Origin: Azolla caroliniana
Lineage: Eukaryota; Plantae; Polypodiophyta
Reading direction: 5' to 3'
Length of the DNA stretch: 64,000 nt
NCBI GenBank assembly: GCA_043228905.1
Contig: JBHGNT010000009.1
Coordinates: 12,834,001 to 12,898,000, forward strand
Shown: piece after piece, positions 9,253 to 62,574 of the stretch
Layout: every line of letters starts with the position of its first letter
Position numbering within the stretch: the stretch's first letter is position 1
Program-made: the position numbers and the translations under genes
The notes under the pieces: model-generated
The model's database searches: none
The model's input: the letters and a program-made list of their open reading frames with translations, nothing else
What the model was told of the DNA's origin: nothing

Positions 9253-9526
9253 TGACCGACTTCAAGAATACTGGGACCTTGTCCGCCCCCACCGATTCTT
9301 GATCCCGGACCAAAAGTTGGGAAAACCGGAGATCGAACTCCCGGAATGCCTTCATCGCGCTTCGAGGAGCCTTTGTCGACGACACCCATAGATCGAACTC
9401 GCATCGATCGTACTTGTACGCCTCTTCTCGTCTTTCTCTCCTTCTTGCGTAATCCCTTGCCATTCTCGTAATTACTTTCGCGATGTCTCCGTCTTCCATC
9501 TCCTTCCTCCCTTGCCGCCTCTTCAC
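8948..9526 (-). pseudogene. Gag remnant of element E
   Basis: FREFDLRFSQL..D...GADKVPVFLKSV..LEDDEG..GLTEDW aligns with the gag of the Trp element at 31320-39420 (LHEFEKRF..LDTSKVLLFIKSV..LETNNGLTTD). Confidence 0.7.
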
Positions 9527-9539
9527 GTCGGGTTCACCA
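9522..9539 (-). promoter_or_regulatory. Primer-binding site complementary to tRNA-Trp
   Basis: TGGTGAACCCGACGTGAA is the reverse complement of the recalled plant tRNA-Trp 3' end (TTCACGTCGGGTTCACCA). It lies 4 nt from the LTR. Confidence 0.85.
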
Positions 9540-10406
9540 AATATGTCGCGTTGTTACGCGCGTGCGTGGAGAAAGGCGGGACCACGGGGGTCTTGGACTA
9601 GGGAGTGACGGAGTGTAGGAAGTCATACTTCACCGTTTCCGGGGCATCCCAGAAGCACACCGGCAGCAACCGAAGGGAGAGAGAGAAAGAGAGGGAGCGC
9701 GCGTTTGACACCGACTCACGCACACACACACACACACACAGGCCGACCCGACTCACGCCCTTATGTACAGGAAACGCAGGAAAGGGGAAGCAGCCGACAC
9801 CAACAGAGACACCAATATACATAGACAGACGCAAATGTATATATATAAAAGGAGGAATACATTCCCGGCTTCGAGCCGGACCAAGGTAGGTTACAGTAGT
9901 CGTCGGCTACCAAGCCGCAGGTCGGGAGCTCACGGGCTTGTCGCGCCGAGCGGGGCCTTGCACAGGAGACGAGCTGAAGCAAACCCTAAGCAAACATGAA
10001 GGGGGAGAAGAAGAAGAAGAACTAACCCTAAATCTAATGGTATACCCTCTAACGCAAAATGGGCAACCCTTTCACAAAGGCCGCTCCCTTCCTTTTATAG
10101 AACAAGGAGAGGGATGCGTTATAATGTGGGATAAATCCCGACTTACATGGGATCATCTGTCCTGACTTGACTACTATTCGGCGCCATAAAGGCGCCCTCG
10201 TTATTCACACTAAATGTACAAGGGTGAGCACACATGCTGCACCCCGCCGATGTAGCCAATGTTTCCTGGTTTCCGCCTCTGGCCGAAATTCTTCACGACA
10301 GCGTGAAGATAAATCGTAGAGAGCTCGCACACAGAGAACCCCCTCCCTCAAAACTTTCTCTCTCACATTCTCCCCACCATCAAACCTCTCCGACCTCGAC
10401 GCAGAG

Positions 10407-13390
10407 ATGGACTGCCAAACGCTTTCTGAAGCCGCCAAGAAATGGTTACGGCAGCACGGTTTGGAGGGTTTCTTAACGATCATGGAGGCAGCGCCACACA
10501 AAGAGACCGAGAAGATTATAAAAGAAATCGACACGGAGGTGATCACGGAGGAGGCGATCCGTGCGTTAATAGGCTTTCCGGAGGGCGGTATCTACACGAT
10601 CAACAATCCTACCCCCGAGCAACTTATCAAATATTTCGGTGAGTACTCTCTAGCCAACAAGGGCTATAGTACACAAGGCGGCGAAGATATTATATTCCGA
10701 GAAATTGCCCGTGTGCTCCACGAGTTCGGCCACGTGTAACCTCGACCCCCCGTCATGCCTCAAAACCGAGCAGGCTTGATCATCGCAACGTACGAAGGGG
10801 TCAAGGTAGATTGGCCGGTGCTGATCGCCGATGGGTTGTGTACGGCCATTGATATAGTAAGGGGAAAGGACGGCAAGGAAGGCCGGAAAATATGGCATGC
10901 AGTGACACAATGGCTCACCCTGTTGGCGCCACCGGTCGAGCCCGTCCAAACCAAGAAGCGGGGAAGAACAACGGACGGCACCCCGAAACCTGCTTCGAAA
11001 CATCAACAACTGTTGGCTTCCAAGGCCACTAAGGGGAAGACTTCCGAAGTAGAGAAGGCGACGAAGGAGCGCGCCAACCGGAAGCGACCAGCGGACACGC
11101 ACGAGGAGACACCGGCACGGGCCTTGAAGAGCCCACTCCACCGACCAGCACAACAAGAAACGGACACCTTGGCCGCAAGAATGAATGTCGGGACTCAGAC
11201 GGAAGAGATGGAGGAAGAACCCACGGAGCACCTCCAGCGGCGGCCGGTGAAGAGCACCGCAGAATCAGTCGGGAAACGTTCAGACCCACAGAAGGATGGA
11301 ACACCCGCAACTCACGCTGAGCAACCCACGCCAAGGGAGGCACCGGAACCGGTTCGGATGGAACCGGTCACAGAAGTCCCGGCACAACAGGCAACACTGG
11401 CAAGCCCTGTCACCCAAGAGCCGGAGATACAAAGGCCAACCGCCCCAGCCGGCCAAGAACAACTAGACAAGGGGGCGACCAGACGAAACACACTTAGAGC
11501 CGGAACGGCAAAGTGGTCAGCTGGCAGAACCAGAAGCGCAGCTTGACACAGAAAGGCGGGACCAACCACCGGCGAGTGAACCCATCAGCCAACTCTCCGT
11601 GCAAGCGCAACAACAGTGCACCGGCAGCCAATGGCTCCGGTGGATAGGAGACCAAATTGCCGGAGTAGTCAGAGGAAAGAGCGCAAATGGAGTGATTGCT
11701 CGTCACAACCGATGAACTGGAGATGGCCCGGTCAAGGATCCGGTGCCTGGAACAAGACTTGGATCGTATCACAGGAGATATGGCCAAAATGGCCTTAACC
11801 GCAACGCAGGTCTAAGCACCGGTGACTCTGGTTGATGTACAGAAGAATAAGACCTCGGAGACACAAACGGTCCTGGAGAAAGAGGCGGCGCAAGCCCAAG
11901 AGCTTGCGGAATTACGAGATGAGCTAGCCGCACAAGAAGCATTACGGAGCCGCAAACGCGACTTGAAGAAGGCGGCTGAAGAAGAATTAAGAAAGACTGC
12001 TGAGAACCTTCGCCGTGCAAAGGAAAACCTGCGTAAAGGACATCATACTTACGACTAGCTGAAGGAGGAAAAAGAGAAAGTGTTGCAAGAAAAAGACAAG
12101 CTGCGACGGATGGCGGAAACGGAAATCAAGCGGGAGGACCACGCGCGTCGTCAAATAAACCAAAGGTTGAAGCAGAAGACCGATGATTTCGATCATCTGC
12201 ATCGGGACTACAAGCAGCTGGAGACGGAGCATCAGCAACGGATGGCCGAGCTCCGGCAAGAAGTTGATAAGGCCACAATGGCACTCGCCGAAGAACGAGC
12301 GGAAAGTTCCAGGCTATTGGAGGAAGCGTCGAATGCCCGGATGGAGCTCCACAAACAGAACCATGAAGACAAGGAAAGAGCGACAATGGTACTACAGAGG
12401 TTGCAAACAACCTATCAAACTCAATTGTCGCATTATAGGGAGTAGGAGGCGGACACGGTTCGGATCATCAAGCAGTTGAAGGAAGAGCGACAAGCCACAG
12501 AAAATAAATCACAGATGGGAGCCGAACGGATCCAGTGCATCCTCCGGTCATGGCTCACTAAAACCAAAAGCTTGATTGATGACAACTCTGTGCGTTGGTG
12601 GGCAAAATGGGCGCAGAATACCGTGGAACTCCAATTGCTTAGGGCGGACGTTGAAAATCGGCGAAAGGAGGGCGACAACTGCTATATGCTGACCTCAGAG
12701 GACTTGACCACCGTCAGGGACGAGCAGGCGGAAGATTTCACAGCCTAGCGACAAGCCGCAGAAAATAAATCACAGATGGGAGCCGAACGGATCCAGTGCA
12801 TCCTCCGGTCATGGCTCACTAAAACCAAAAGCTTGATTGATGACAGCTCTGTGCGTTGGTGGGCAAAATGGGCGCAGAATACCGCGGAACTCCAATTGCT
12901 TAGGGCAGACGTTGAAAATCGGCGAAAGGAGGGCGACAACTGCTATATGCTGACCTCGGAGGACTTCACCACCATCAGGGACGAGCAGGCGGAAGATTTC
13001 ACAACCCTGGCGGATGAACAATTGGTGCAGGTTCGACAGCTCGTAGCTCAACTAGACGATGATCGGCTGGAGGCTCAAATCCAGTTCGAAAGCTATGAGT
13101 GGTCCTGGCTCCGGGAAGAAAAAGCGCGAAAGACGGCAACGATCAACCTTAGTGATGAGGAACCGTCGCCGGTGCAAAGACCGGAGGGGGAACAGGCCGG
13201 GGTCAATCAGTCACAGACAACTCCGACGGAGGAACCAACGACGGAAACACCGGTGCCAGAGCCACAAACGGAGCAACAGCCACATCCGCAAATGGAACAA
13301 CAACAACAGCCACAGCAACAACAACAGATTCTCCACGAGCCACTAGAAATTTTGGAGCAAAGCATTCTGGACATTTTGGACGAAGCGTAA
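10407..13390 (+). pseudogene. Extra ORF of element A: N-terminal globular domain, Pro/Glu-rich linker, long coiled coil
   Basis: Consecutive ORF pieces separated by nonsense codons, homologous along their length to 58945-61764. Contains a 261-bp tandem duplication. Confidence 0.8.
12486..13007 (+). repeat. 261-bp tandem duplication within extra ORF A
   Basis: AGCGACAAGCC..GAAGATTTCACA repeated at 12486 and 12747. The junction creates an in-frame TAG. Confidence 0.9.
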
Positions 13391-13398
13391 AAGGGCCG

Positions 13399-13442
13399 GA
13401 TAGTGGGTTCGACGTACAAGGTACTATCCCACGGGCGTGCCA
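13399..13442 (+). promoter_or_regulatory. tRNA-Arg(UCU) 3'-half mimic / inverted PBS in place of the PPT (copy A)
   Basis: GATAGTGGGTTCGAC-GTACAAGGTAC-TATCCCACGGGCGTGCCA, then TG, then LTR start TGTTAC at 13445. Confidence 0.75.
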
Positions 13443-13444
13443 TG

Positions 13445-13907
13445 TGTTACCGGTCGGCAAAGAAGGCTAAAGGAGGTCCAAACCAGAGTGTGAAAGGAAT
13501 AGTTATTCAGGAACTGTTGGAATTAGTAGTCTTAATATATACATATTATTATATAAGAAGATGTGGACAGACGGACCGGAATCGGTATACCGATCCGGAT
13601 CCGGAACGATTCCGTAAAGATGTCGTTTGGCACCGTTTTGTATTTCGCACCAAAGACCTATATAAAGGCCCGGTTACAATGTAATCAGGAGCGGATAATT
13701 AATAAAGCTTATGGTCTTAATCTTCAAGTGTTGATTACCGTTCTGTGATTATTGTCATATCTTACGCGTGTTAATTACGGATGGCTAAGTAATCGATTAA
13801 GGTCTAATTAAGCGTTGTGCCGTAAGTCATTCTGCCGTACCACCCTTTGGTGACGTGTCTTAAGTGGACACCCTGTGTTAGGTTGTTGTCCAGCCCTAGC
13901 AATAACA
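13445..13907 (+). repeat. 3' LTR of element A
   Basis: TGTTAC...TAACA; clearly similar to the LTRs of element D (46249-46698, 61818-62267). Confidence 0.88.
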
Positions 13908-15188
13908 GCCAACGAACGCATCGCGGAGTTGGAACAGAACGCAACTATGGCACAACAGGAATCTCGACCAATAGACACCACCGGTGAGGTCCAGTCCCTA
14001 TGAGAAGAGCTTGAAGCCCAGATCGCCATCACCTCAAAAGCAAAGAGGGTCGTGTAGCTGGCGGAATCTGAGATTGACCGCCTCCGCTCCGAACTCTGCC
14101 AATCCTTCGACAGAGAAAAGGATATCCTGGCCAAAGGCCGACAAGTAGGGAAGACCCTCAAAGAGAAACTCGAAGCGGAGGAAGCGGTGCACACCCGCAC
14201 GAAAGAAGAAAACACCAAACTACGCGAGGAAGCGCAAAAGTCGGAAACGGTGATCATAGGACTCCGGGTGTTATTGGAAAAGAAGAAAGTGTGGTACGAC
14301 GAGCATCTCATACGGGAATAGGAGGTGAGGCATCAGGTCGAAATTCGCCTGAACAATGAAATGGGCAAGCTAAAGGAATTGCACTCGAAGGAATCTCAGA
14401 TATGGGCAGGAATGAAGAGCAATTATGAGGAAGTGGTTGTGGTCAGTAAGCAAGAAATCGAAAACCTCAAGAAATCCCTGGAAGAAGCACGTAACCACTA
14501 CCAAGTAATAATCGACAACGTGCGCATAGTTCTTCAGACAAATCGGGAGAGGTTTACGGCGCAATTACAAGCGGCGCTAGACAAAGGCTGGATGGCATGG
14601 GCAACACAAGCAGCGGAGTTGCATACCTACCGGGCGGACTGGGAGAACCGAAGCAAGGACAACTGAGGTTTCTACAAACTCAATGAGGAAGGCATTGCGG
14701 CAGTACGCGAGGACCTAGCGCAGGATTATCACACGCTAGCGGACCAGCACTCCGAGGAACTCGCGCAGCTACTGAACGATTTCGGCGAAAGTCAGGAGGA
14801 TATGTTTCACCGAATCATGCAAGCCGGCAGCACGCGGCCAAGCGCAGAACCAATCGCGATACCATAAAATGATACTCCCGAACAGGAGGAACCTCAGCCC
14901 ACTTGACCGGAAATAACAACTATGGCCGGCAACACTGAGGAAGTGGCGGACAGGACAGAGCCTCAACCTACCGTGAGCCCGTAGACGGATGAGCCAGCCA
15001 CAGTAGAACGGGATGAGCCAACAGAGCCCGATCCGCCCACACAGGGAGACGTTGACGCCATTGAGAGTCCCACCGAACAAGTACAAGACATGGAACCGTG
15101 CAACGACGCGCCTACGGACACTGTGTCGTCCCCAGACCAGGACATCGGAGTGGAACCAAACATTCGGGCTATTTTGGAGGAAGAATAA
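13908..15188 (+). pseudogene. C-terminal half of a divergent extra ORF (element B), interrupted by element A
   Basis: Coiled coil and motif WMAWATQAAELHTYRADWENRSKDN.GFYKL, matching WAKWAQNTAELQLLRADVENRRKEGDNCYML in A and D. Ends IRAILEEE* versus ILDILDEA*. Confidence 0.75.
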
Positions 15189-15192
15189 AGGG

Positions 15193-15233
15193 ATGGGTCC
15201 AACGTGCCATGGCATTGTCCCACAGGCGTGCTA
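15193..15233 (+). promoter_or_regulatory. tRNA-Arg 3'-half mimic / inverted PBS (copy B)
   Basis: ATGGGTCCAAC-GTGCCATGGCAT-TGTCCCACAGGCGTGCTA, then 2 nt, then TGTTG LTR start at 15236. Confidence 0.65.
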
Positions 15234-15235
15234 GG

Positions 15236-15701
15236 TGTTGTCCGCCGTAATAGTAACTGACTGACAAAAGCGCAGAAGCATTAAATATAGTAAAGCGTAA
15301 AGAAACACATGTAATGGTTCACGCGGGAAGCGTGAATGGCTAAAGGCCCTGCGTATATAAATGGCAGAAATCCTCTATAAGAGGTAGCTTGTAATTTTGG
15401 TGCATAGAGCGTTTCTCTAAGAGAATACTATCTTCTCTGATTTCTGTGTAGATCTATGGTTTTATCTACTGTGTTTCTTGTTCTTTGTTGCGTACTATTA
15501 ATCATAAGGGTGTAGGCGTAAGTGCGGATACTAGTGCACTTCCTAAGGAGTTCGGTTGTAGCCATCTCCCTTATACGCTACTAGGATACGAGGGAGTATC
15601 CCATTACGTATTACGGCACGACGATACCATTCCTTGCAACACAGTCACCTTGAGGCCTACGTCGAAGGACTGACCGTAGGCAGTATTCCTAATCGGTAAC
15701 A
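15236..15701 (+). repeat. Probable 3' LTR of element B
   Basis: TGTTG start directly after the conserved motif, TATA-like boxes, probable end GGTAACA. No second copy in the window, so the right end is approximate. Confidence 0.6.
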
Positions 15702-17144
15702 CCAGATCACTGCTGTACGATCGATAACTTCGATCGGAGCTTTGGTTGACTCGAACCTTCTTGTTCGGTCAGTACAATTTGCAATTGGATCACACACCAA
15801 TCGGCTAGTTCAATATGGATTACATGGGTCCTGGATTCGGTCAACTATTAGAAAACATGTTGAATTTCTTGTCTCACATACAAATGGGCACATCATCCAT
15901 GGTGAATATTCCTCCTCCTCATCCAAATTCTTCGTCTACAATGTTTTCCCCACAACCTAAGGAAGAAGAGCCACAAAGAATTACACAAGAAGAACAAGAG
16001 CACGAAAATGAGCATGAACGAGAAGAACATGAACAAGAAGTGCCCCAGATTGCATCTGATGAAGCTCCTGATACTGTGACTGGTTATATAGTATTTGTGC
16101 TATAGCTTAAGGAGCATCCAAAATTTAAAAGAAAGGGTGATGATCTGTTTGTAGAGCATGCCTTGAACCTTACAGAGGCTCTGTGTGGCTTCCAATTTGT
16201 TCTTCAGCATCTTGATGGACGATAGGTGCTGATTAAATCAAATGTTGGAGAGATTGTGAAAGCAGATCAATTCAAGGCCATTAACGATGTTGGCATGCCT
16301 ATGTATCAGAGACCTTTTATGAAGGGCAAGCTTTATGTTCAATTCTCTATAGAAGTTCCAAAATCAGGGTCTCTGTCTTTAGACCAATGTAAGGCTTTGG
16401 AAGCCATATTGGCCCCTCGGCCATCAAATGGAATGACAAATATAAAGGTTGAAAAATGTGAAGAAATTATTTTCCAAGATGTGAATATGGAAGGTTTGAG
16501 CAAGGTGCTCGAATTTTTGCTTAATATCAGAGAAGACTTCATCAATATGAGGCCTAAGCAATATCGAGATAGAGGGCCTGATATCCATCGTGGAGATGCG
16601 ATTTGCCGCCGTTGTTGCCGCTACCGCCATTGCGGAGATGAGAATTGTTGTTGCCGCCGCCGCCATCGTTGCCACCGTCGTCGCAATCGTTGTCGACGCC
16701 GCCATATTGATGTCGCTAGAATACCAGTCAAAGAAGATGGAGAGGAGAACGAAGAGAAAAGGGCAGAAAGAAATTTACAAGAACTCGAGGGCACGCACTC
16801 GAATTTCAAAAGCTCGAGGGTAGAAGAAAAAATTTCAAAAGCTCAAGGGCATGACATGAGATTTCAAAAATTGGAGGGCAGAATCCAGAGGCCGAAAATA
16901 AAATTTCAAAAAATTTGAGGGTAAAAATTTTAAAGACCAAAGGGTAATCTATATATATATATATAACTCACTTCACATGATGAAAGAAAGAATACACAAA
17001 TGCACAACACGATTTCACGACCCATGCTACATTGAACTAGCTGATTGGTGTATGATCCAATCGCGACTTGTGCTGACCGAACGAGAAGGTTCGAGTCAAC
17101 CAAAGCTCCGATTGAAGTTATCGATCGTAGAGCAGTGATCTGGT
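15701..17144. repeat. ~125-bp inverted repeat pair (15701-15830 and 17019-17144) enclosing a DnaJ fragment
   Basis: ACCAGATCACTGCTGTACGATCGATAACTTCGATCGGAGCTTTGGTTGACTCGAACC... is the reverse complement, with a few mismatches, of ...GGTTCGAGTCAACCAAAGCTCCGATTGAAGTTATCGATCGTAGAGCAGTGATCTGGT. Confidence 0.9.
16058..16493 (+). pseudogene. Fragment of a type-A DnaJ/Hsp40 (J2/J3-like) C-terminal domain, intronless, two TAG stops
   Basis: DEAPDTVTGYIVFVL*LKEHPKFKRKGDDLFVEHALNLTEALCGFQFVLQHLDGR*VLIKSNVGEIVKADQFKAINDVGMPMYQRPFMKGKLY...CEEIIFQDVNME. Confidence 0.9.
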
Positions 17145-17202: not shown

Positions 17203-17247
17203 GGCGAGTGGGTTCACCGTGCAATGCATTGTCCCACAGGCGTGCCA
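17203..17247 (+). promoter_or_regulatory. tRNA-Arg 3'-half mimic / inverted PBS (copy C)
   Basis: GGCGAGTGGGTTCACC-GTGCAATGCAT-TGTCCCACAGGCGTGCCA, then TG, then TGTTAC at 17250. Confidence 0.7.
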
Positions 17248-17249
17248 TG

Positions 17250-17592
17250 TGTTACCGTAAGAATATACGGGGAGGCATAAGGGTATGTGTAATGATGTGG
17301 TTGATGTGTATGTGTAAAGTAAATGAGTATGTGAGGATGACTCTGTGTGAGCACATGCACAATTATGTGCATGTGACAAGAGTGTAACGGTCGTCTCTTT
17401 TGTAACGGTCATTATTTACCGTTACATTATGTATTATATAAACCCCTTATGGGGCATCTAATGGATATACATTTTTCCCCTCTCATTTTGTGTCATATTG
17501 TATTGGTCTTTCTCTCTTGCTCTCTCTCTAACTTAACCCCCTTAGGAGGGGGGTGAAGCCATTCTAGGTTTCACCCCCCAACCCCAACAACA
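17250..17592 (+). repeat. Probable 3' LTR of element C
   Basis: TGTTAC start after the motif, TATATAAA near 17435, CT-rich segment, ends near CCCCAACAACA. Right end approximate. Confidence 0.55.
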
Positions 17593-25600: not shown

Positions 25601-26346
25601 CCTCCTCCATGTGGGAAACATGTGAGCTCTTCCGAGCCCGGCCACTTGGCTAAGCCATTATATATGATCATCTGGTGTCGGCTTCCAAGTTCAAGCAGAT
25701 GATGGCCAAAGCTTGTGGCGTCCGCACCTTGATCTTTTGATGTACGTGTTATGCCTAAGGCTAAAGGGTCGACATTCACCATTTCTAGGTTTCTATCCAT
25801 CTGAAATATTGTGCATTGGCGGGATTGGGTTCTCGCATTGAAATCTCCTACAAGGAAGACTTCCCCTTGAGAAGAATATCGGATTATGTCATCCAATAAA
25901 GGTTCGTATGGAGAAGGCCCATGTGGCGTTCCTTCATCAACTATACTCGCCACTCCAGCCATATTATACCGAGATCCTTTCGGGGGGAAGTAACAAATGG
26001 CAATAAATATCACCTGATCTTTGCTAGTGAGTACTTTCACCCACATAAAACGGGCTTCTGGGTCTTTCTTTAGTATTTCTATCCTACTATGTATCTCTCT
26101 CCGAAATAATATCGCAACCCCTCCAGACCCTCTAGTAGTGTGTCGACGTGAGGTTTGTCTAAAGACAGATTCCCAACGAAAACCATCAACTCGTGGTAAT
26201 CCTCGATTTGGACTTTGATGTGTTTCTACCAAAAAAAGTATATCAGATACCCTCAAAATCTCCTCTAGACGGCCAGGGTGTGTCCAAAGTGCACCGTTAC
26301 AATTCCATAAACTCATCCTAAGTCTATTATTTGTCACATGGGCCAC
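22603..26346 (-). pseudogene. LINE ORF2p (AP endonuclease, RT, CCHC) with one in-frame TAG at 25243-25245
   Basis: WNCNG, LVETH, VGDFNA, TVDY and ADH endonuclease motifs; QAGFR, VDFRKAFD, GVKQGCPLSP and YADD RT motifs; CRLC..EYHFTCKC. ORFs 25243-26346 and 22603-25212 are in the same frame. Confidence 0.92.
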
Positions 26347-26352
26347 ACGCCG

Positions 26353-46248: not shown

Positions 46249-48722
46249 TGTTACCCGACCGACAAAGGAGTTAAATACCAGAATGTGAAAGGGATTGTTA
46301 TTCAGAATCTATTTTAATTAAGTAGAATAGATTATAATTAAGTAGTGAACGGACGGACCGGAATCAGTATGCCGATCCGTTTCCGGACCGGTTCCGAACA
46401 GGTGCCGGTTGGCACCGTTTTGTACGCAGCACCGGTGACCTATATAAAGGCCCGGTTACAATGTAAAACTTTAACGGAGAATTAATATAAGCTTCTTGTT
46501 TTATCTTCACGTATTGATTACCGTTCTGTATTAATTGTTATATCTTACGCGTGTATTAAGTGAATGCCCTATTGCTAAGTAGCCAATTAAGTCGGATTAA
46601 TCATCGTGTCTTAAGTTATCTCGCCGTAACACCCCTTTGGTGAAGTGTCTTCCGTAGACAACCTGTGTTAGGCCATTGTCCAACCCTAAGGATTAACATA
46701 GTTTTTGGTGACCACGATTCCTGCACAATCGCAGCGAACAGCGGCGGGAATCGATGACGCGACCAACGAACGACCTGGTTACGGAGCGAGCAAGGAGACT
46801 TGTTGAACCACTGAGGAAGCGAGAGGCTTTCCAGCAAACGGCAGAAGAAATCAGAGTGGATCGCTCATTTTCCAAGGTGATCCGGACAGTGGCCAAGGAG
46901 TCACTTTGATTATCACAAAACGACTACCCGGACGAAGAAAGCAGCCTAAGCAGCCTAAGCAGCCTCCGGGAAGCGGAATCCCTTCTCCAGGCATTGGTAG
47001 CGGGGGAAGGTGAATCCGAAGCATTTTTGGCATTTGAATCGGGTTTGGACAGGGAATACAGTGCACAGACGAACTATCGCAAGAGTAATGACACCCTAGA
47101 CGGACCAGAGGACGAGGAGTCGGATACCTTGCCGACACCGGAACCAGAATTGACAAGGATGGAACATCCGGCACCGGAGGTCGACCACACTCTGGAACCA
47201 GAAGTCGAGGAAGAGAGACCTCTGACACCGGAAGTTGAGGAGGAGAAGCCTCCTACACCGAAAGAGGAGCGCGAAAGACCTCCGACGGCGACAGAGGACC
47301 GAGAAAGACCTCTGATGCCGACAGAGGAGGAGGAACGACCACCGACACCACCAGCCCATGTACCGACACCAGACGACGATATGCCGTTCCAATATCCCAG
47401 ATATCGGGATGATCCGGATGCGGAAGCCCACGTCCATGCGTTTCAACGGACCTGGGAGGCAAACCATATGTCCCAACGCTTAAATGCAACCGAAGAGGAA
47501 CGTTCAAGAAGGGCAGAGTTCGGCATGACCTTGGAGGGACCGGCCGCCAGATGGCACCGAACACAAGATCCCAACACCATCCCCAGGTTTGAAACATTAA
47601 AGACAAAATATTTGCATTTCTTTCACAAGGAGATGGACCAACGGGAAATGGTAGGCTTATTTTACAGTATCCGGTAGGAACCAATGGAGAACATTCAATA
47701 GTTTGTCATCCGGTTCCAGCGGATCCACAGTCAGCTCAGCCGAACACCACCGAAGGAAGAAACAAAGGCCATATTCTTAGCAGCACTCTGGGAACCCTTA
47801 CGAACGGTGTGCACCGTCATTGATTTCCGCACCAACAGCATAGATCACGTGATCGACCAAGTTGGGGAAATGGAAAACTCAAGTTCATGGCTAACCATGG
47901 GCGTACTTCAGCGTGCACTACCGACAGATGAGGACCTCCGTTTCTAGCAAGCAGTTCAATGTACAACATGCCTAAATGCCGGACATTCGGCGCTGGAATG
48001 CACCATGCATTCCCAATGCTTGCTCTGGCACTCCAGAAGTCATACAATGGAACGGTGTGAGTATAACTTGTTAAATCAACAAGCACCACCGGTCTGGGAA
48101 ATTGAACCACGAAGCAACCAAGAGGAAGAAGAAGAACGCTGGTGGCGAGAGGAGCGCTATCGGCCGGCACAAGATGTCCAGTACCATGATTGAAGAGACG
48201 CTTATGACCGGTATGACAGACAGGATAGATATTGGGACTATAATGGACGGTATGAGAGATACAACCGGGATCACTCCCCTGGTTACAACCAACGACGGGA
48301 CGACTATGGCAAGTATGACGACCAACAACATCAAGGTTACCGAAACAAAAAGAATTTCAACAAGAAACGTCATTTCAACAAAAAGGGGGGTCATCCACGG
48401 GAACCGGAAAAGGGCGTTCCAAGCCGCCAACCAGACCAAAACCAAGCACTTACCACAGGACCTCCACCAAGCACACACGCCGAATCCAGCAACACTTGGA
48501 AGCCGTACTGCTATTATTGCCAGCAAGAAGGCCACTATAGTAATCAATGTCCGGCGAAGAGCTACGACAAGCGACCAATTGTAAACATGGTAGACGCGGA
48601 AGTCGCGGACATACAACAAGTCACTACAAGATCAAAAGGCAAAGCCTCGGAGTGGGAAACTCAAGAAGCCATCCGGAAGCAGGCAACCGAATGGGTGAAG
48701 AAGGAAAATGAGAGGAATGCGG

Positions 48723-54004: not shown

Positions 54005-57000
54005 TGCGGTAGAGCTCGAATAACAAAAGGAGAATGCTGAAGAGCTTACCGGCCCAGGGCAGCCCGAAAACCCAACATGGCAGGCGTTACAAGACTGCCA
54101 AATAACGCTGCCATTAGGCCGGCTATTGCAACTGGTACCACGCTTCACAGAAGGACTGAAGACAGGAAGGACGACAGTTGACACACCACCGGCTCGGGCA
54201 TTCTTTTCAAATCCGGAGGAAGAACCGGCAGTGGTGGACACTAGCAGTCTGGCAATCACAACCATCGTGAAAGGAAATGAGCTACCATGCACGATTATCG
54301 ATGGAGGATCCGGTGTGAACGTGATCAGCCTTCGATCGTGTAACATTCTAGGTATCCATGACTGGGAACCGTGCCCATTTTGGCTTCGGATGGCAGACAC
54401 AAGCTCAGTATGGCCGATCGGGTTAATACGTGATCTGGAAGTGACCATCGGGGGTCACACATTTCGCATTTCCGCAGTAGTTCTCTAGCTACAGGGTCAG
54501 GTAGCTTACCCACTATTGTTGGGACGCCCTTGGTTAAAAACAACACACATCAAGCAAAACTGGAGGAAGAATATAATTACGTTCCGGCGTGGAAAAGCGA
54601 AAGTACGAGTACCGACTCAAACACGGTCCGGTACCGGAAAGGAATCGACGCCGCTATATGCGGAATGTGTCAACATGAAGAGGTCAATCAATACTTATAG
54701 GAAAATCCGAAGATCGTACCTCTGTTCGAGATTGATGTAGCCGGAGCAGTATCATCGTACATACTGCAACCGGACGGGACCGACGAGGAACCGGATAAGG
54801 AAGCAATTCGGGAATTACGGCAAGCACAGGAGGCACTGGAAAGAGAAATGGCAGTGTTGCAGCACGTGAAAGCATCCCAACTAGAAGAGGTGAACCTAGG
54901 TACCACAGAGGACACAAGACCGTTGCACATCTCCAAGGAAATGACCCCAGAGAACAAAACGGCAATGATCACACTCCTAAAAGAATTTCGCGATGTGTTC
55001 GCCTGCTCCTACGAGGACATGCGGGGACTCGATCCTCAGTTGTATCAACACCAGATACATCTGAGTAAAGATACCAAACCGGTAGCGCAACGACGTTACT
55101 GGATGAACCCAAATTACGCAGCAAAAGTCAAAGAAGAAATCGACAAGTTGCTAAGAGTGGGCTTCATCCGACCGGTAAAGAAAGCCACATGGCTCAGCCT
55201 GATAGTCGTAGTACCCAAAAAGAACGGTAAGATAAGAGTGTGCGTCGACTACCGGAAATTGAATGCGGCTATGGTAACGAACGCCTTCCCACTTCCATTC
55301 ACGGATGGAGTCCTGGATGTGGTCGCCGGTCATGAGGTGTACAGTTTTTTGGACGGTTTCAACGGCTATAATCAGATCCGGATGCACCTTGCCAACCAAG
55401 AGATAACCGCTTTTGTCACCGAATGAGGAGTCTTTGTTGTCGTAGTGATGATGTTCGGACTAAAAACGGCGCCGACAACCTTCCAGCGGATCATCATGGA
55501 GATTTTCGGAGAATTCATTCCGGCGTTCATGCAGGTGTTCTTGGACGACTTTGCTGTTTATAGCCGGGAAGGGGATCACCTTCAGTACCTCCGACTATGT
55601 CTGGAGAAATGTAGGGTTTACCGACTAAGCCTGAACTCGGCAAAATGCGTGTTGGGAGTAACCAGCGGAGCGTTACTGGGCCACAAAGTGAGCAAGGACG
55701 GTATCGCAGTGAATCCAGACAAAGTAAAAGCAATCCTGGAGGCACCGGCACCAGCCATGGCAAAGGTACTAAGCCGGTTCTTAGGACAAATTCGGGGGCA
55801 TAGTCGAATGCTCCGGTATCTAGCAGACCTGGCTACACTATTGAATGCCGCGGTACATTGGACACCATTCCGATGGACGGACACAGAAGACCAGGCTTAC
55901 CGGGCACTAAAAGTACTGTTGCCACAAGCGCCGGTGGTGTAACCTCCGGATTGGTCTAAAGAGTTCCATGTGTTCGTTGACGCGTCCGACATCGCAATCT
56001 GGAGCGCGCTGATGCAACTGACAGAACCAAAATGGTACCAACCAGTGTATTATGCCAGCCAGAAGCTGTCCCAAGCGGAACATAATTATTCCACAACGGA
56101 AAGAGAGGCCTTGGGTATGATGTATAGTGTCACCAAGTTTAGACACTATCTGCTAGGAAGGAAATTTTCCTTTCACGTAGATCATTTGGCGCTCCTTTAC
56201 TTGGTGTCCAAAGCATCACTCACCGGTAAGCTGGCCCGATGGACGTTACTATTACAAGAATTTGACTTCGAGATATTCCACCGACCCAGCATACAACATG
56301 CGGTAGCAGATTATTTGAGCCGGTTAGATTCCGGCGAAATCGGTGACGGCGTCCGAGATGACTTTCCGGATGCAGAGCTGTTTAGAGTTACAGCAGAAAC
56401 TGCAATGTATGGTACGGTCGCAGAGGAAGACAAGTGGCTCACCAACATGCACCAATTTCTGAGCACCGGCTTACCTCCAGAGGAGATGAACAGAGACGAA
56501 AGGAAACGCTTAGCGGTTCAAAGCGGCACTTTTGTCTATTACAGGACATATTGTACCACAAAGACGCAGATGGCATATGACGGCGTGCAGTGTGCAATGA
56601 CGAAAAGGAAATAATATTGCGCGAAGCACACTACGGCGTGGTTGGAGGACATTATGCCGGAGACGCTACGACAAGGAAAATATGGCAGAGTGGACTATGG
56701 TGGCCGACGACATTGAAGGACGCAGTCCGGTACGCTAAAGAATGCGACCTATGTCAGCGAATGGGCCAACCAACCGAACAAGCCAGGATGCCTCACCAGC
56801 CCGTGCTACCATTAGAACCATTTCAGAAATGGGGGCTGGATTTTGTCGGTCCATTCAAACCACCGACAATGAGAACCGGCAACCAGTACGTGATTGTCAC
56901 TACGGATTACTACACAAAATGGGTGGAAGCCAAAGTAGTACGCAACAACACCGCAGCATCCACGGCAAAATTTTTATATGAATGCATTTGGTGCCGGTAT

Positions 57001-57582
57001 GGACGTCTGATAGAGCTCATAAGTGACCAAGGTGGGCACTTCTTAGGGCAAGTAGTGGAAAGTTTGACGACGTTTTATGCGGTGGTGCACAAACGGAGCA
57101 CTCCCTATTATCCGCAAGCCAATGGATTAGCTGAGTCAACAAATAAAACACTACAGAACATCCTGTGAAAAATTGTCAATGAGATCTGGACGGATTGGGA
57201 TACAAAGCTGCACAGTGCACTTTGGGCCTACCGAACGGCATATAAGACAAGTATCCGCACAACACTGTTTCGCCTAGCATTCGGATTGGAAGCAGTGATG
57301 CCGGTAGAGTTCCAGGTACCGAGTTTACGAATACAGATTCGGGAATGCCTAAATGAGAAGGTATCGGAACCTATTCGGTTAACCGCGCTGTGCGAATTGG
57401 AAGAACATCGGCTAGCCAGGATCATACACCTAGAACTAGAGTAGCGGCGAAGGAAAGCGTTCGTGGATCGTCACTGAAAAGGGAACGAAAAGATGTTCGA
57501 AATCGGTAAGCTGGTACTAGTATTCCAAACCCGGATGGGTAAGATGCCGGGGAAGCTACGGTTTTGGTGGACCGGACCATAC

Positions 57583-58247
57583 TGTTGGGAGACAGGTCCC
57601 TCCGGATGGGAAGGGAGAAACCGGATGAGGAGTACCCGGTTACGGAGAGCCAGATGGTACAGACCCGGTTAGAACCGGATGAGGAGTACCCGGCTACAGA
57701 GAGCCGGATGGTACAGACCAGGTGAGAACCGGATGAGGAGTACCCGGCTACGGAGGACCGGATGATGCAGACCCAGTGAGGAGTGCTCTTCGGATGAAGA
57801 GACATATTCGTAAATATGTCTCTTGGAGTCCATCGTGGCTATATTTGTAAATAGCCGAAAAGTCATATTAGTATAAATATGACTTAGGGCAAACCTTTTG
57901 ATATAGTTGTTGTTATTGTTGTTTGCGTGAGATCAGAGCGCGTAACTGTGTACAGAGAGAGCAAGAGAGAGAGGAAGAGGTCGTTGCCTCAGTTGTAACC
58001 GCTGCCTGTGGCGAGAATCGTGAGCACGAGGTCGTTGCCTCCGTGAACTCACTGTTGTACATTCTAGCATAGTGATAGTTTGCAGTCTGTGGGCTGCCGT
58101 GGTTTTTCCCTTAGTTTGGGTTTTCCACGTAAACATCCTGCGTACTCGTCTCTTCTTCGTTTCGTTCATTATTTCCCGTTTTTTGTGTATGATTCTAAGC
58201 TCGGTTGTGGCCGAGCGCTGCGCATAAGGAACGAGTAGTTCTTGTCA
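57583..58247 (+). repeat. Solo LTR, TSD CATAC, in the integrase tail of element D
   Basis: CATAC at 57578-57582 and 58248-58252. Same family as 28567-29231. Confidence 0.93.
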
Positions 58248-58944
58248 CATACTGGATTACACGTGAGTTCAATGGTTCCTACTAGTTAGGGACACTCGCC
58301 GGTGAGGTTCTGGGTAAATGGGTCAATGGGTTCCGACTCAAACCATACAATGGACTCATGCCAAGAAACCCATTTGAACAAGTAAAGGCCGACACAGAAC
58401 TAGACACCAGTAAGATGCAAGAAACGGCAACACGTTCAGCAATCGGCAAGCGCGAAGCCGGTAAGAGGGAGCACGAGCCAGCAAATGACGCCACGGCAAG
58501 CAGTCCAGCAGCCGGAAAGTCCCACAATCCGGATAGGGGTTCAGTGGGACCGGATGCGAATTAACCAAACCATTTTTACCAAAAAATAAAAATAAAAAAT
58601 CAAATCAAATCAAATCATGCAAGGGCGAGGGGTGAACGGACACATGCAAGAACAAGGAGTGAACAAACACTTCGAAAAGGTACGTAGTGGGCTATTAATA
58701 GGATATTAAACTGCCACCACATGGCACGTCATTCTATTTTAGTACACGACGTGCACACGCGCAAGTCAGAAAAAAAAAGGCGGCAACATGCAACAAGAAA
58801 ACTCCCACCGCGTGGAAACCTTCACATTTCGCGAACAAAGGAGCACAAAGGAGCACAAGCAATCAAAGATCAGCAGACGCGAGCCCACACACAGAGCCTC
58901 CTGAAACACACCCCTCACCAGTGCTCACCGACCTCGAAGAAGCC

Positions 58945-61764
58945 ATGGACTGCCAAGCACTCTTTGAAGCAGCCAAGAAGTAGCTAAGGCAACACGGGTT
59001 AGAAGGTTTCCTCACAATCATGGAGTCTCCACCGCACTGGGAGGCGGAGAAGATAGTAAAGGAGATCGACACGAAACTGATCACGAAGGAGGCCATCCAT
59101 GCTTTGATTGGCCTTCCGGAAGGGGGCATCTTCACTATCGACAACCCTACCCCGGAGCAACTCCGAAAATATTTTGGGGAATACTCTCTGGCTAGCAAGG
59201 CCTACCGGACACAGGGCGGCGAAGATCCACTCTTTCGAGAGATTGCCTGTGTGCTCCATGAATTTGGACATGTATACCCTCGACCCCCATGCATGCCTCA
59301 GAACCGGGCCGTCTTAATCATAGCAACATATGAAGGCGTGAAGGTGGACTGGCCAGTACTTATTGCGGATGGGCTCTGTGCGGCCATCGACTCTGTCAGA
59401 GGCAAGGAGGGTCGGAAGATATGGACGACAGTGGCGCAATGGCTCACCCTATTGGCGCCACCTATCGAGCCCGTCAAAACCACGAAGCGGGGAAGAACAA
59501 CCAAAGTCACCCCAAAAACAGCCTCGAAATGGCAGCAGTTGTTGGCCTCTAAGGCAACCAAAGGAAAGGCGGCCGACACGGACCAGGCGGCAAAGGAGCG
59601 CGCCAATAGGAAGCGGCACGCGGAAACGTAGGAGGAGCCACCGGCATGGACAATCAAGATCAGGCTTCACCGACTGGTTCAACAAGCGCCAGACCCCTTG
59701 GCGGCGAAAATCAACATCGGGAATCACGAGCAGGAAGCGGAGGAGGAACCGTTAGAGCACCTCCAACGGCGCCAGAAGGCAAGCCCCTCCGAACAGGCCG
59801 GGGAGCATTCAGACCCAAAGAATGATGGAACGCCTCTACCCCGCACTAATCATCCCGCACCAAAGGTGGAACCGGAATCGGTTCGGACAGAACTGGTCAC
59901 AGAGCTCCCTGCACGACAAACTATACCGGCAGGTCAGGATACAGCAAGACCCGAAATGCAAGTGCCAGAAGTACAATTGCCTACCCCACCGGCAGGTCAA
60001 GAGCAATCAGAGGCGGAGCGCCCAACGGAGCGGCAACCAGAACCAGAGACAAAGTTGCAGCTCGACAGAACCGGACAATACCGACCACTGGCCAGCGACA
60101 CCAACGGCCAACCCTCCGGGCAGATGCAACAACAGGGCACCGACAACTAATGGCTCCGGTGGATTGGAGAACAGATTGTCGGAGTAGTGCACTACATAGA
60201 GGCGGAAGAGAAAGCGCAGATTGACCGGTTGCTCGTCACACCCGAAGAACTAGAGAGGGCCCGGTCAAGGATCCGGAGCTTAGAACAAGACTTGGACCTG
60301 GCCACAAAAGAATTGGCCAAAATGGCCCTAACCGGACCACCGATCCAAGCACCGGTGACTCCGGTAGATGTATAGAATAAAGAAACACCGATATCTGTAC
60401 ATAGCAATAAGACCCCGGAGATGAAACCAGTCCAGGAGATAGTGGCGGCGCAAGCAAAAGAGCTTGCTGAACTGGGAGATGAACTGGCCACACAAGAAGC
60501 ATTACGCACCCATGAGCGGGACTTGAAGAAAGTGACAGAAGAAGAGCAAATAAAGACTGCTGAGAACCTCCGTTGGGCACAAGAGAATCTGCAGAAAGGA
60601 CACCAGGCATATGACCGGCTGAAGGAGGAGAAAGAGAAGGCGCTGCTAGAAAAGGAGAAGCTGCGACGGATGGCGGAAACAAAGATCGAAAGACTGAAAG
60701 AAGAACTCCGTCAATAGAAGGATCGGGAAGACCGCAGTCGTCAACAACTCAACCAAAAGCTAAAGCAGAAGACCAATGATTTTGAGCACCTGCATCGGGA
60801 CTACAAGCACCTAGATATGGAGCGTAAGAAACAGTAGGAGAAGATGGCAGAGCTCCGGCAGGAGGTACATCGAGCTGAGACGGCGCTAGCGGAGGAACGG
60901 GCTGAAAGAACCACGCTGCTGGAGGAAGCTGCGCAAGAACATATGGAGCTCCATAAGCAGCATTATGAAGAGAAGGAAAGAGCGACAATGGTGTTGCAGA
61001 GATTGCAGAACACCTATCAAAACCAATTGTCACATTACCGGGAGCAGGAGGTGGATACGGTGGCACTAATCAAGCAATTGAAGGACGAATGGCAAGCTGC
61101 GAAGGACAAATCGAAGATGGGATTGGAGCGGATCCAGTTCATTGTCCAGGCATGGAGGAACAAGACCAAACACTTGATTGACGAATGCTCCGCGCAATGG
61201 TGGGACAAATGGGCAAAGCACACAGCCGAGCTCCAGTTGCTAAGGGCGGATGTGGAAAACCGGCAGAAGGATGACGACGACTACTACATGCTAACAAAAG
61301 AGGAGTTCACCGTTGTAAGAGATGAGTTAGCAGAAGATTTTGTAACTCTGGCGGAGGAACAGTCAGTAGTGGTCCGACGACTGGTAGCACAGCTAGACGA
61401 TGATCGACTGGATACTCAAATCCAGTTTGAAAGCTATGAGCGGACCAGGCTACGGAGAGAAGAAGCAAAGCAGGCGGCGACCATCAACCTCAGCGATGAG
61501 GAGCCATCACCGAAGCAAGGACCGGACGGAGACAAGGCCGGGGTGAGTCAATCGGAGTCAAATCCGGCAGTGTAGCTAACGGAGGAATCACCGCCACAAC
61601 CGCTTGTACCGGGAGCCGAATAGATACCATCTAAGGAGCAACAATCGGAGGAGCCGGAGCCACAACAACAACAACAATAGTCGCAGCAACAACAACAACA
61701 GAGTTCCGAACAACCATTGGATACCCTAGATCAGAGTATTCTAGATATCTTGGATGAAGGCTAA
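58945..61764 (+). pseudogene. Extra ORF of element D (about 940 codons, several nonsense mutations)
   Basis: Starts MDCQAL.EAAK like copy A, is colinear with 10407-13390 and ends ILDILDEG*. Confidence 0.82.
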
Positions 61765-61770
61765 GGGCTA

Positions 61771-61815
61771 GATAGTGGGATTCAACGTACAAGGTACTGT
61801 CCCACGAGCGTGCCA
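61771..61815 (+). promoter_or_regulatory. tRNA-Arg 3'-half mimic / inverted PBS in place of the PPT (copy D)
   Basis: GATAGTGGGATTCAAC-GTACAAGGTAC-TGTCCCACGAGCGTGCCA, then TG, then the LTR at 61818, whose boundary is fixed by the paired LTR and TSD. Confidence 0.8.
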
Positions 61816-62574
61816 TGTGTTACCCGGCCGGCAAAGGAGTTAAAGACCAGAATGTGAAAGGGATTGTTATTCGGAATCTATTTTAATTAAGTAGAATAGA
61901 TTATAATTAAGTAGTGAACGGACGGACCAGAATCGGTATGCCGATCTAGATCCGGACCGGTTCCGAACAGGTGCCGGTTGGCACCGTTTTGTACGTAGCA
62001 CCGGTGACCTATATAAAGGCCCGGTTACAATGTAAAACTTTAACGGAGAATTAATATAAGCTTCTTGTTTTATCTTCACGTATTGATTACCGTTCTGTAT
62101 TAATTGTTATATCTTACGCGTGTATTAAGTGAATGCCCTATTGCTAAGTAGCCAATTAAGTCGGATTAATCGTTGTGTCTTAAGTTATCTCGCCGTAACA
62201 CCCCTTTGGTGAAGTGTCTTCCGTAGATACCTTGTGTTAGGCCATTGTGCGGCCCTAAGGATTCACAGAATTCAAGCCATTGAACGTTACAAGAATATAA
62301 GGTATAGAGCATTCACATTTGGAGGCAAAGAACACGAACCAATATCTTAAGAATAAGTCAAAAGTAAAAGTAAGAGACATAGATAAAAGTAAAAAGAGAA
62401 AAAAGCGGGCCATAAAAAATAGTAAAAAAGGAATGGTCATAACTCTTTCGTTTTAAACCCAAATATTCTGTTTAAATATGGGTTAGAAAGCGTGTAAATA
62501 GAGCTATCTATAGCTTTTTAAATCTCTAAATTTGGAGCTGGGATAAGGGAGATATCACGATTAGAAGTTCGATG

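What the first reader, a model, noticed from the sequence alone, without database searches (positions are those of the whole stretch)
13399..13450. The PPT-replacing motif is a covarying RNA/ssDNA structure: tRNA T-arm with a hairpin inserted in the T-loop
SEEN, four copies aligned. A: GTGGG TTCGAC GTAC aag GTAC TAT CCCAC GGGCGTGCCA. D: GTGGG ATTCAAC GTAC aag GTAC TGT CCCAC GAGCGTGCCA. C: GTGGG TTCACC GTGC aat GCAT TGT CCCAC AGGCGTGCCA. B: ATGGG TCCAAC GTGC catg GCAT TGT CCCAC AGGCGTGCTA. The outer stem GTGGG/CCCAC is retained. The inner stem changes sequence but keeps pairing (GTAC/GTAC versus GTGC/GCAT). Deleting the inner hairpin from copy A leaves GATAGTGGGTTCGA.TCCCAC.GGGCGTGCCA, a tRNA variable loop, T-arm and acceptor strand. 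INFERENCE: this is either a bipartite tRNA-binding site that opens both strands of the primer T-arm, or a tRNA-like structure processed by RNase Z/P-type enzymes. In A, B and D it begins within about 10 nt of the extra-ORF stop codon.
Basis: partly seen in the sequence, partly recalled or inferred. Interest (0 to 1): 0.82.

Follow-up and report, generated by a model that had tools for sequence, protein, structure and literature searches.

The report
tRNA-shaped hairpin replaces retrotransposon PPT
Many families of a plant jumping-gene lineage lack the purine tract that normally starts the second DNA strand and carry there a conserved copy of an arginine tRNA's tail split by a small hairpin whose pairing is kept as its letters change, which likely forms a docking site that lets a host tRNA start the second strand too.

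Summary
Four copies lie in the window (0 of 100 shuffles), each 2 nt before the 3' LTR of a Ty3/gypsy-type element, where a polypurine tract (PPT) should be. 69 metagenome copies fall with them into 16 flank clusters. The inner 4-bp stem has three family-level forms (GTAC/GTAC, GTGC/GCAC, GGGC/GCCC); its two middle pairs are unbroken in 73 of 73 copies. This rests on only 2 to 4 independent double changes. The rest equals tRNA-Arg(UCU) positions 49-76, with the hairpin inserted between 58 and 59 and base 66 missing. The same 9-10-nt site is the ordinary 5' primer-binding site of three sister families. Best reading (0.57, inferred): on minus-strand DNA the motif is a split binding site for host tRNA-Arg, which primes the plus strand. 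Rival (0.22): the element's own RNA hairpin is the primer. RNase P/Z processing is not supported: no acceptor 5' strand (1 of 69), and families without the extra ORF keep the motif. Folding does not tell which strand folds. The scan reported this PPT-less lineage before on other DNA of this genome; new here are the covariation count, the 58/59 insertion point and the shared 5' site.

The parts
13403..13442 (+). Motif copy A: GTGGG (tRNA 49-53), TTCGA (54-58), 13-nt insert 13413-13425 holding the inner hairpin 13414-13424, two bases (59-60), CCCAC (61-65), 10-nt arm ending in CCA (67-76); read on the minus strand it is an inverted primer-binding site
13443..13444 (+). 2-nt spacer (TG) between CCA and the LTR
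13445..13907 (+). 3' LTR of element A (TG...CA)
   Evidence: 72-76% alike to the LTRs of D
10292..13390 (+). Broken extra ORF of element A, ending in an acidic C-terminus 12 nt before the motif; its start is cut off by the nested element at 5508-10300
15193..15233 (+). Motif copy B (decayed: ATGGG, CTA end), followed by a GG spacer and a different LTR from 15236
13908..15188 (+). Broken C-terminal part of the extra ORF of element B, into which element A is inserted
17208..17247 (+). Motif copy C, of a family with no extra-ORF end upstream
17250..17589 (+). 3' LTR of element C
46249..46698 (+). 5' LTR of element D; preceded by target-site copy GAATT, not by the motif
46706..46715 (+). 5' primer-binding site of D (TGGTGACCAC; family form TGGCGACCAC), 7 nt after the LTR, followed directly by a predicted stem
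54005..57600 (+). Broken pol of D: RT, RNase H, integrase in Ty3/gypsy order (gag lies before the nested copia at 48723-54004)
58730..61764 (+). Broken extra ORF of D (start approximate; about 1000 aa when intact in L030, L059, L068); no Pfam family
61775..61815 (+). Motif copy D
61818..62267 (+). 3' LTR of D, 95.6% identical to the 5' LTR, followed by target-site copy GAATT

Best explanation
The motif is a conserved, hairpin-split copy of the 3' part of tRNA-Arg(UCU) that sits where the polypurine tract should be in a lineage of plant Ty3/gypsy retrotransposons, and it likely works on the minus-strand DNA as a second primer-binding site, so that a packaged host tRNA-Arg would prime plus-strand synthesis. 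Shown: position 2 nt from the LTR, absence of a purine run, tRNA match, covarying inner stem, independence from the extra ORF, and use of the same 9-10-nt site as a normal 5' site in sister families. Inferred steps: (1) After minus-strand transfer, RT copies the motif and RNase H clears the RNA. (2) The exposed DNA folds into the nested hairpin and leaves a toehold complementary to tRNA bases 67-76. (3) The tRNA (or its 3' fragment 59-76) anneals there and branch-migrates into the outer stem, which has the same sequence as the tRNA T-stem; the inner hairpin stays folded at the 58/59 junction and base 66 bulges. (4) RT extends CCA into TG plus U3, and RNase H removes the primer at the CCA junction, leaving the 2 nt that integrase trims. 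This would explain why the tRNA-matching bases stay fixed while the inner stem, which pairs only with itself, covaries.
For: Position: CCA + 2 nt + TG-LTR in 4 of 4 window copies. D's target-site duplication fixes the LTR border and shows the motif is internal. gag-pol lies upstream on the same strand in D, L030, L059 and L068. Four other LTR elements in the window have a G-rich PPT at this place. Conservation: summed contig depth at the motif is 340,000-586,000 against 1,800-30,000 upstream and 17,000-92,000 in the LTR start (run X1). Contigs turn unlike the window just before GTGGG and just after TGTT in DNA runs of three more organism labels. tRNA match: a phage tRNA-Arg(TCT) has the same T-arm and acceptor end; it and two tRNA-Lys genes in L025 have 8 nt between T-stem and CCA position, the motif 7. 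The same site is a 5' primer-binding site in clusters 0 (10 contigs), 3 (4 contigs) and the gag-pol-coding cluster 6 (L046). L012 holds two homologous leaders that differ in which tRNA site they carry. Cofolding favours the minus strand (-21.9 to -37.2 kcal/mol) over the plus strand (-4.1 to -12.6) in 16 of 16. Arm variants seen in several contigs are G-to-A, which keeps a G-T pair with the tRNA. T-to-C at tRNA position 55, also wobble-compatible and not a deamination product, occurs in four clusters. Precedent for 10-nt and split sites: Ty1, Ty3, Drosophila Gypsy.
Against: No biochemical or cDNA-end evidence. The host's own tRNA-Arg was not obtained; a phage tRNA stood in, and RNA/RNA energies stood in for RNA/DNA. 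The minus strand pairs well with the tRNA by construction, so that result shows feasibility only. The search pattern fixed GTGGG, CCCAC, most of the arm and the TG spacer in all 69 loci, so their invariance there is not evidence; only searches are freer of this. G-to-A is also the usual methylation decay. Cluster 3 has a fixed C-to-T at position 56 that breaks pairing with the tRNA. Mismatches at the outermost inner-stem pair are G-T on the plus strand in 10 copies and on the minus strand in 3, a slight lean to a plus-strand RNA fold. Shuffle z-scores do not separate the strands (plus better in 7 to 11 of 16). A 17-bp tRNA/DNA hybrid is itself an RNase H substrate (Ty3 active sites lie about 13 bp apart), so the primer must be protected somehow.
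Confidence: 0.57

Rival explanations
1. The element's own genomic RNA is the primer. After RT has copied it, the RNA refolds into the nested hairpin, escapes RNase H as double-stranded RNA, stays annealed by its 10-nt arm and is cut at CCA. RT then sees a built-in mini-tRNA mimic in place of a PPT.
For: The plus-strand RNA is predicted to fold both stems in most representatives. G-U-compatible mismatches lean to the plus strand (10 vs 3). An A inserted or substituted after GTGGG (clusters 1, 5, 7) lengthens the outer stem in cis, and one further cis pair is possible in 29 of 48 rows. It needs no second tRNA and keeps the usual rule of an RNase H-made cis primer (PMC5371799).
Against: A cis primer is always complementary to its own DNA copy, so it does not explain why the arm and outer stem keep the tRNA sequence across 16 clusters with unlike flanks while the inner stem covaries; protein recognition would have to be invoked. 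The same arm site serves as a normal 5' tRNA site in sister families.
Confidence: 0.22
2. The 3' arm pairs in cis with the element's own 5' primer-binding site, to circularise the RNA or to self-prime the minus strand; plus-strand priming happens elsewhere.
For: In clusters 0, 3 and 6 the arm is complementary to the family's own 5' site over 8-10 nt; many cluster 0 copies have a T-ended 5' site and an A-started arm. Ty1 needs a 5'-3' CYC pairing (PMC3592414).
Against: The gag-pol-coding cluster 1, including A and D, and cluster 2 have a different 5' site (TGGCGACCAC) that pairs with the arm over only about 4 nt, yet keep the arm. L005, L006, L049 and L046 mismatch their own 5' site. It leaves the fixed 2-nt distance to the LTR and the missing PPT unexplained.
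Confidence: 0.06
3. A tRNA-like structure cut by RNase P/Z-type enzymes, making the 3' end of an extra-ORF mRNA or a small RNA ending in CCA.
For: It ends in CCA and lies mostly 4-12 nt after the extra-ORF stop in coding families.
Against: A match to an acceptor 5' strand lies within 60 nt upstream in 1 of 69 copies, so there is no acceptor stem. The T-loop is broken by the insert and its letters vary. ARAGORN and Rfam do not see it. Clusters 0, 2 and 3 lack the extra-ORF end and keep the motif. That RNase Z acts on CCA-less precursors is recalled, not from a call.
Confidence: 0.03
4. It is the ordinary primer-binding site of an antisense-replicating element: a full-length antisense RNA is the genome, or either strand can be.
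For: On the minus strand the motif reads LTR-CA, 2 nt, TGG..., like a textbook primer-binding site, and the two sites face inward symmetrically.
Against: gag-pol, the extra ORF, the LTR TATA-like box and a 5' primer-binding site are all on the plus strand. Even so, one strand would still be primed at an inverted tRNA site, since no purine tract is evident at the other end of D either.
Confidence: 0.05

Closest known systems
Canonical Ty3/gypsy reverse transcription (S. cerevisiae Ty3; PMC5371799, passages read)
   Same: gag-PR-RT-RH-INT order, two LTRs, 5-bp target-site duplication, tRNA site after the 5' LTR, a primer position fixed just upstream of U3.
   Different: Ty3 primes the plus strand from an RNase H-resistant purine tract; here there is no purine run and a tRNA-sense sequence ending in CCA stands at that place.
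Split primer-binding sites of Ty1, Ty3 and Drosophila Gypsy (PMC3592414 passages; PMC5371799 passages; PMC1635307 abstract and section 19)
   Same: A short 10-11-nt core site plus further pairing to the T arm, with template looped out between the segments; a second tRNA site near the 3' end.
   Different: Those sites are complementary to tRNA on the genomic RNA and serve minus-strand priming; Gypsy's 3' site binds the anticodon and T stems and is dispensable. Here the site is tRNA-sense on the RNA, includes the CCA end, points into U3, and could bind tRNA only on minus-strand DNA or antisense RNA.
Plant non-chromovirus OTA elements (Athila, Tat, Ogre, Retand; PMC6317226, passages)
   Same: No chromodomain hit, a long extra ORF after pol, a non-Met tRNA site; that paper lists tRNA-Arg among non-chromovirus primers.
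   Different: No second RNase H domain found by Pfam (so not Tat-like); the extra ORF has no Pfam family; PPT replaced. No tree against reference lineages was possible.
tRNA-like elements cut by RNase P/Z (MALAT1 mascRNA type; recalled, no call)
   Same: tRNA-like sequence inside a longer transcript, near a 3' end.
   Different: No acceptor stem, interrupted T-loop, CCA already encoded and followed by LTR.

Membership tests
Ty3/gypsy LTR retrotransposon | RT, RNase H, integrase in that order after gag and protease | tested here: met
   D; intact relatives P0004, P0006:
Ty3/gypsy LTR retrotransposon | Two direct LTRs (TG...CA) and a target-site duplication | tested here: met
   D: 450-nt LTRs, 95.6% identical, GAATT on both sides
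Ty3/gypsy LTR retrotransposon | Primer-binding site just after the 5' LTR | tested here: met
   TGGCGACCAC or TGGCACGCC(C/T) type, 1-7 nt after the LTR; the tRNA for the first type is not fixed by a call (bacterial Asp and Arg tRNAs both end so)
PPT-primed LTR elements | Polypurine tract just upstream of the 3' LTR | tested here: not met
   Longest purine run 2-3 nt in 73 of 73 (for 69 of them largely set by the search pattern); four other elements in the window do have one
Chromovirus | Chromodomain after integrase | tested here: not met
   No chromodomain family in P0004 or P0006
OTA / Tat | Additional (archaeal-type) RNase H domain | tested here: not met
   Only RT_RNaseH families, at one place, in P0004 and P0006
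OTA / Athila | Placement of RT-RH-INT inside the Athila clade | not testable with these tools
   No reference set of plant lineages was at hand; named relatives are fern and liverwort proteins at 43-61% identity
OTA / Athila | Extra ORF 3' of pol | tested here: met
   About 1000-aa ORF in L030, L059, L068; no Athila ORF-1 or other Pfam family above cut-off
tRNA or RNase P/Z substrate | Acceptor stem stacked on a 7-nt T-loop arm | tested here: not met
Conserved RNA/ssDNA structure | Compensatory changes in a helix | tested here: met
   Inner stem; 2-4 independent events on the extra-ORF tree; R-scape not available
Conserved RNA/ssDNA structure | Compensatory changes in the outer stem | tested here: inconclusive
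   No change on both sides, but the pattern fixed these bases
Functional primer-binding site | tRNA anneals and is extended by RT | not testable with these tools
   Needs particles or in vitro RT

The most novel reading that the evidence does not exclude
A successful lineage of plant LTR retrotransposons has abandoned the polypurine tract altogether: a host tRNA-Arg docks on nascent minus-strand DNA through a strand-exchange site (toehold, T-stem swap, three-way junction at the 58/59 step) and primes the plus strand, so both strands are tRNA-primed.
Probability: 0.55. Interest if true: 0.88.

Novelty: new variant of a known kind. Interest (0 to 1): 0.76.

Why it matters
PPT priming of the plus strand is treated as general for LTR retrotransposons and retroviruses (PMC5371799, PMC6317226). 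A lineage with many families across at least four organism labels that replaces the PPT with a structured tRNA-derived site would break that rule under either leading mechanism. It shows how an RT/RNase H pair can be re-wired to a new primer and gives a 40-nt element that can be swapped for a PPT in a yeast or in vitro system. It would also expose a second site to host tRNA fragments, and annotation tools that require a PPT would miss or mis-orient these elements.

Tried and rejected
No whole genome was held, so no genome-wide model, no host tRNA gene and no search for primer scars. Viral contigs: the motif pattern gave 1 hit without hairpin or LTR context, taken as chance; no pol relative; no tRNA for the second 5' site. 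Bacterial genome scan for that site's tRNA: most of 120 loci held no tRNA; those ending in the site's complement were Asp or Arg, so the isotype is not fixed. No RNA holder listed; one run guessed to be RNA had 4 contigs that run over the ends of the stretch laid, which says nothing on cleavage or expression. The narrow read-laying listed no per-base variants. A third, basal helix (upstream GGC or CATGG pairing with GCCA) is predicted in some families. It is not general: GGC within 12 nt upstream in 0.31 of families against 0-0.11 further up, and longest complementary run 3.3 against 2.7-3.2. A T-loop complement downstream of the 5' site was looked for; a GAAC or GTCGAA stretch after a hairpin occurs in some families only, not counted as evidence. 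Strand of folding: undecided. Careful tree not finished; the quick tree was used, and 2 of 35 rows under 70 aa were left out. Protein atlas unavailable for the extra ORF. Literature: ten searches found no description of tRNA-primed plus strands or an inverted site replacing the PPT; subscription journals are mostly not covered. PMC13468544 and PMC10508981 hold none of the primer terms (term search only). The five supplements of PMC6317226 held as text (17,418 characters) lack both site sequences; larger per-element tables, if not held, may bear on lineage and primer.

Full report
1. Observation. The four aligned copies are in the window as written. The pattern has 4 matches against 0 in 100 shuffles, and a covariance model built later finds no other strong copy. 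Each copy is followed by 2 nt and then a TG-starting LTR. Element D settles the anatomy. It has 450-nt LTRs at 46249-46698 and 61818-62267 (95.6% identical) and GAATT on both flanks. Its pol reads RT-RNase H-integrase on the plus strand, followed by a long broken extra ORF and then the motif. The 5' LTR is not preceded by the motif, so the motif is internal sequence at the PPT position. Four other LTR elements in the window carry a G-rich PPT at the same place.

2. More copies. No genome was held. One scan of metagenome contigs, with the inner part left free, gave 69 loci. Their contig names are of one series, so they are probably one host group, not 69 independent samples. With the four window copies they form 16 clusters by flank similarity. 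In L030, L059 and L068, close relatives of gag-pol lie upstream on the same strand. In L036, L060 and L064, pieces of gypsy protein lie on the opposite strand, which I read as nested insertions without testing it. Clusters 0, 2 and 3 have no extra-ORF end before the motif (one weak cluster 0 hit, L004, sits on a very long branch, and L048 in cluster 0 is a coding element linked through its LTR). Laying DNA contigs of four runs on D showed depth at the motif 10 to over 100 times that of the flanks. Contigs become unlike the window right before GTGGG and right after TGTT, also in three other organism labels. So a 45-nt island is conserved across families whose LTRs and upstream sequence differ. 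Named protein relatives are from Adiantum, Marchantia and Riccia at 43-61% identity, which points to a non-seed land plant; earlier notes disagree between fern and moss, and I did not test this.

3. Is the structure real? On 48 distinct rows the inner 4-bp stem has 93% paired cells. The second pair is U-A in 42 rows and G-C in 5; the third is G-C in 32 and A-U in 15. In all, 23 cells changed on both sides, reached by 0 of 500 shuffles, and all six slid registers score lower. RNAalifold finds the same helix unaided. With loop length allowed to be 2-4 nt, 56 of 73 copies have four Watson-Crick pairs, 15 have three and 2 have two; no break falls on the two middle pairs. The shuffle control ignores relatedness, so I counted events. 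On a quick tree of the extra ORF (33 of 35 rows; many open nodes), the three forms need at least 2 double changes, and 4 if nodes with support 86-88 are accepted. That is real but thin, and R-scape could not be run. Copies with the longest intact ORFs have perfect stems. The outer stem shows no covariation, but my pattern fixed it. A basal third helix appears only in some families.

4. What the sequence copies. A phage tRNA-Arg(TCT) has the same T-stem, T-loop and acceptor end. In standard tRNA numbering (my knowledge) the motif is positions 49-76 with a 13-nt insert between 58 and 59 and one base (66) missing. That plant tRNA-Arg(UCU) ends the same way, and that 58 is methylated and stops RT, is recalled, not from a call. 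Position 59-76 is the classical 18-nt primer-binding span (PMC3592414 gives 18 nt for retroviruses). No acceptor 5' strand lies upstream (1 of 69), so the motif cannot fold as a tRNA half that RNase P or Z would take. T-loop letters vary by family: T-to-C at 55 in four clusters and G-to-A at 57 in several fit wobble pairing of a tRNA with the minus strand, while a fixed C-to-T at 56 in cluster 3 does not.

5. The 5' end. Cluster 1 (with A and D) and cluster 2 carry TGGCGACCAC-type sites after the 5' LTR. Clusters 0, 3 and the coding cluster 6 carry TGGCACGCC(C/T), the reverse complement of the motif's arm. So this lineage already uses that 9-10-nt site in the ordinary way, and the matching tRNA is likely packaged and extendable by its RT. 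In Ty1 and Ty3 the site is not renewed from the tRNA, so the C/T difference need not reflect tRNA variants.

6. Mechanism. Shown: position, missing PPT, tRNA match, covarying inner stem, independence from the ORF, shared 5' site. Inferred: after strand transfer the minus-strand DNA presents a 10-nt toehold beside a nested hairpin. tRNA-Arg anneals and swaps partners with the outer stem, whose sequence equals its T-stem. The inner hairpin remains at a three-way junction and base 66 bulges; cofolding with the stand-in tRNA gives this geometry in the four cases printed (RNA energies). RT extends from CCA and RNase H removes the primer, leaving 2 nt for integrase. In Ty3 RT a local distortion redirects RNase H cutting 10-12 bp downstream; the bulge 11 nt from the 3' end could play that part, which is speculation. 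The insert at 58/59 could also be a relic of origin, a captured RT copy of a primer tRNA that jumped at the modified base. In that case the distal T-arm pairing need not be functional and an 18-nt tRNA 3' fragment could be the primer. The main rival is a cis primer made of the element's own refolded RNA. The 10-to-3 lean of wobble pairs to the plus strand and cis extensions of the outer stem favour it mildly, and folding energies do not decide. It explains less well why tRNA identity is kept while the inner stem drifts. Self-pairing with the 5' site fails for clusters 1 and 2, and RNase P/Z processing fails on structure and on the non-coding families.

7. Comparison and novelty. The elements are Ty3/gypsy, non-chromovirus by domain content, without a second RNase H; their place among OTA lineages was not testable. 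Split and doubled tRNA sites are known (Ty1, Ty3, Drosophila Gypsy), but those are complementary to tRNA on the RNA and serve the minus strand. Ten paper searches found no tRNA-primed plus strand or inverted site in place of a PPT. What I saw of papers: PMC6317226 passages and a term search of five supplements; PMC5371799 and PMC3592414 passages; PMC1635307 abstract and section 19; PMC13468544 and PMC10508981 term searches with no hits; the rest only as listings. The scan has reported this lineage before on other pieces of the same genome (15 notes from this genome shown, most favouring tRNA priming, one a cis mimic). These are unchecked notes and not independent support; my reading was recorded before I saw them.

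8. Verdict. New variant of a known kind; tRNA-primed plus strand 0.57, cis RNA primer 0.22; either would be a PPT-free priming route. Interest 0.76.

Noticed in passing
window 61915-61958 (and the matching part of LTR A, about 13565-13615): A palindrome-rich box about 100 nt inside the LTR gives a second depth peak (about 346,000 in run X1), so it too is shared by many more copies than the LTR sequence around it; possibly a structured cis signal or promoter element.
   Followed up: no
L012 (reverse strand, about 160-210 and 2500-2550): Two homologous leader sequences after LTR ends that differ in the primer-binding site (TGGCACGCCC vs TGGCGACCAC): a primer switch between related non-coding families.
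   Followed up: partly
L007 1160-1208 vs L048 448-496: Same motif and LTR start but unrelated upstream sequence (non-coding family vs extra-ORF family): an apparent recombinant with its junction at the motif.
   Followed up: no
L026 1546-1639; run X11 joint 61820 back to 61787: Short tandem duplications of the 3' half of the motif plus the LTR start, seen in two data sets; may be slips at the plus-strand start or assembly artefacts.
   Followed up: no
L069 (1055 nt): Miniature element: 5' primer site only about 460 nt upstream of the motif, keeping a stub of the extra ORF.
   Followed up: partly
L030 242-3169 (-); window 58730-61764: The extra ORF is about 1000 aa, without a Pfam family, and ends in a conserved acidic tail (…ILDILDE/IFDD) mostly 8-12 nt before the motif; function unknown.
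   Followed up: partly
window 46699-46705 and loci: The spacer between the 5' LTR and its primer site varies from 1 to 7 nt between families, whereas the spacer on the 3' side is 2 nt in the four window copies.
   Followed up: no
window 5508-10300 (-): LTR element (about 775-nt LTRs, 93%) with a 762-codon open frame without Pfam hit, a TGGTGAACCC-type 5' site and a normal G-rich PPT; inserted into element A.
   Followed up: partly
window 48723-54004 (+): Young intact Ty1/copia (1365-aa open frame, LTRs 99.7% identical) nested in D.
   Followed up: no
window 15701-17144: Element with 139-nt terminal inverted repeats (87%) lying between B and C; the internal part looks like a captured host coding fragment (DnaJ-like by my reading, not tested).
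   Followed up: no
window 22603-27255 (-): LINE with endonuclease and RT; next to it at 20519-21328 a frame with an XPA C-terminal Pfam hit.
   Followed up: no
L025 1062-1137 and 2756-2828: Two tRNA-Lys genes (TTT, CTT) downstream of a motif-bearing LTR.
   Followed up: partly
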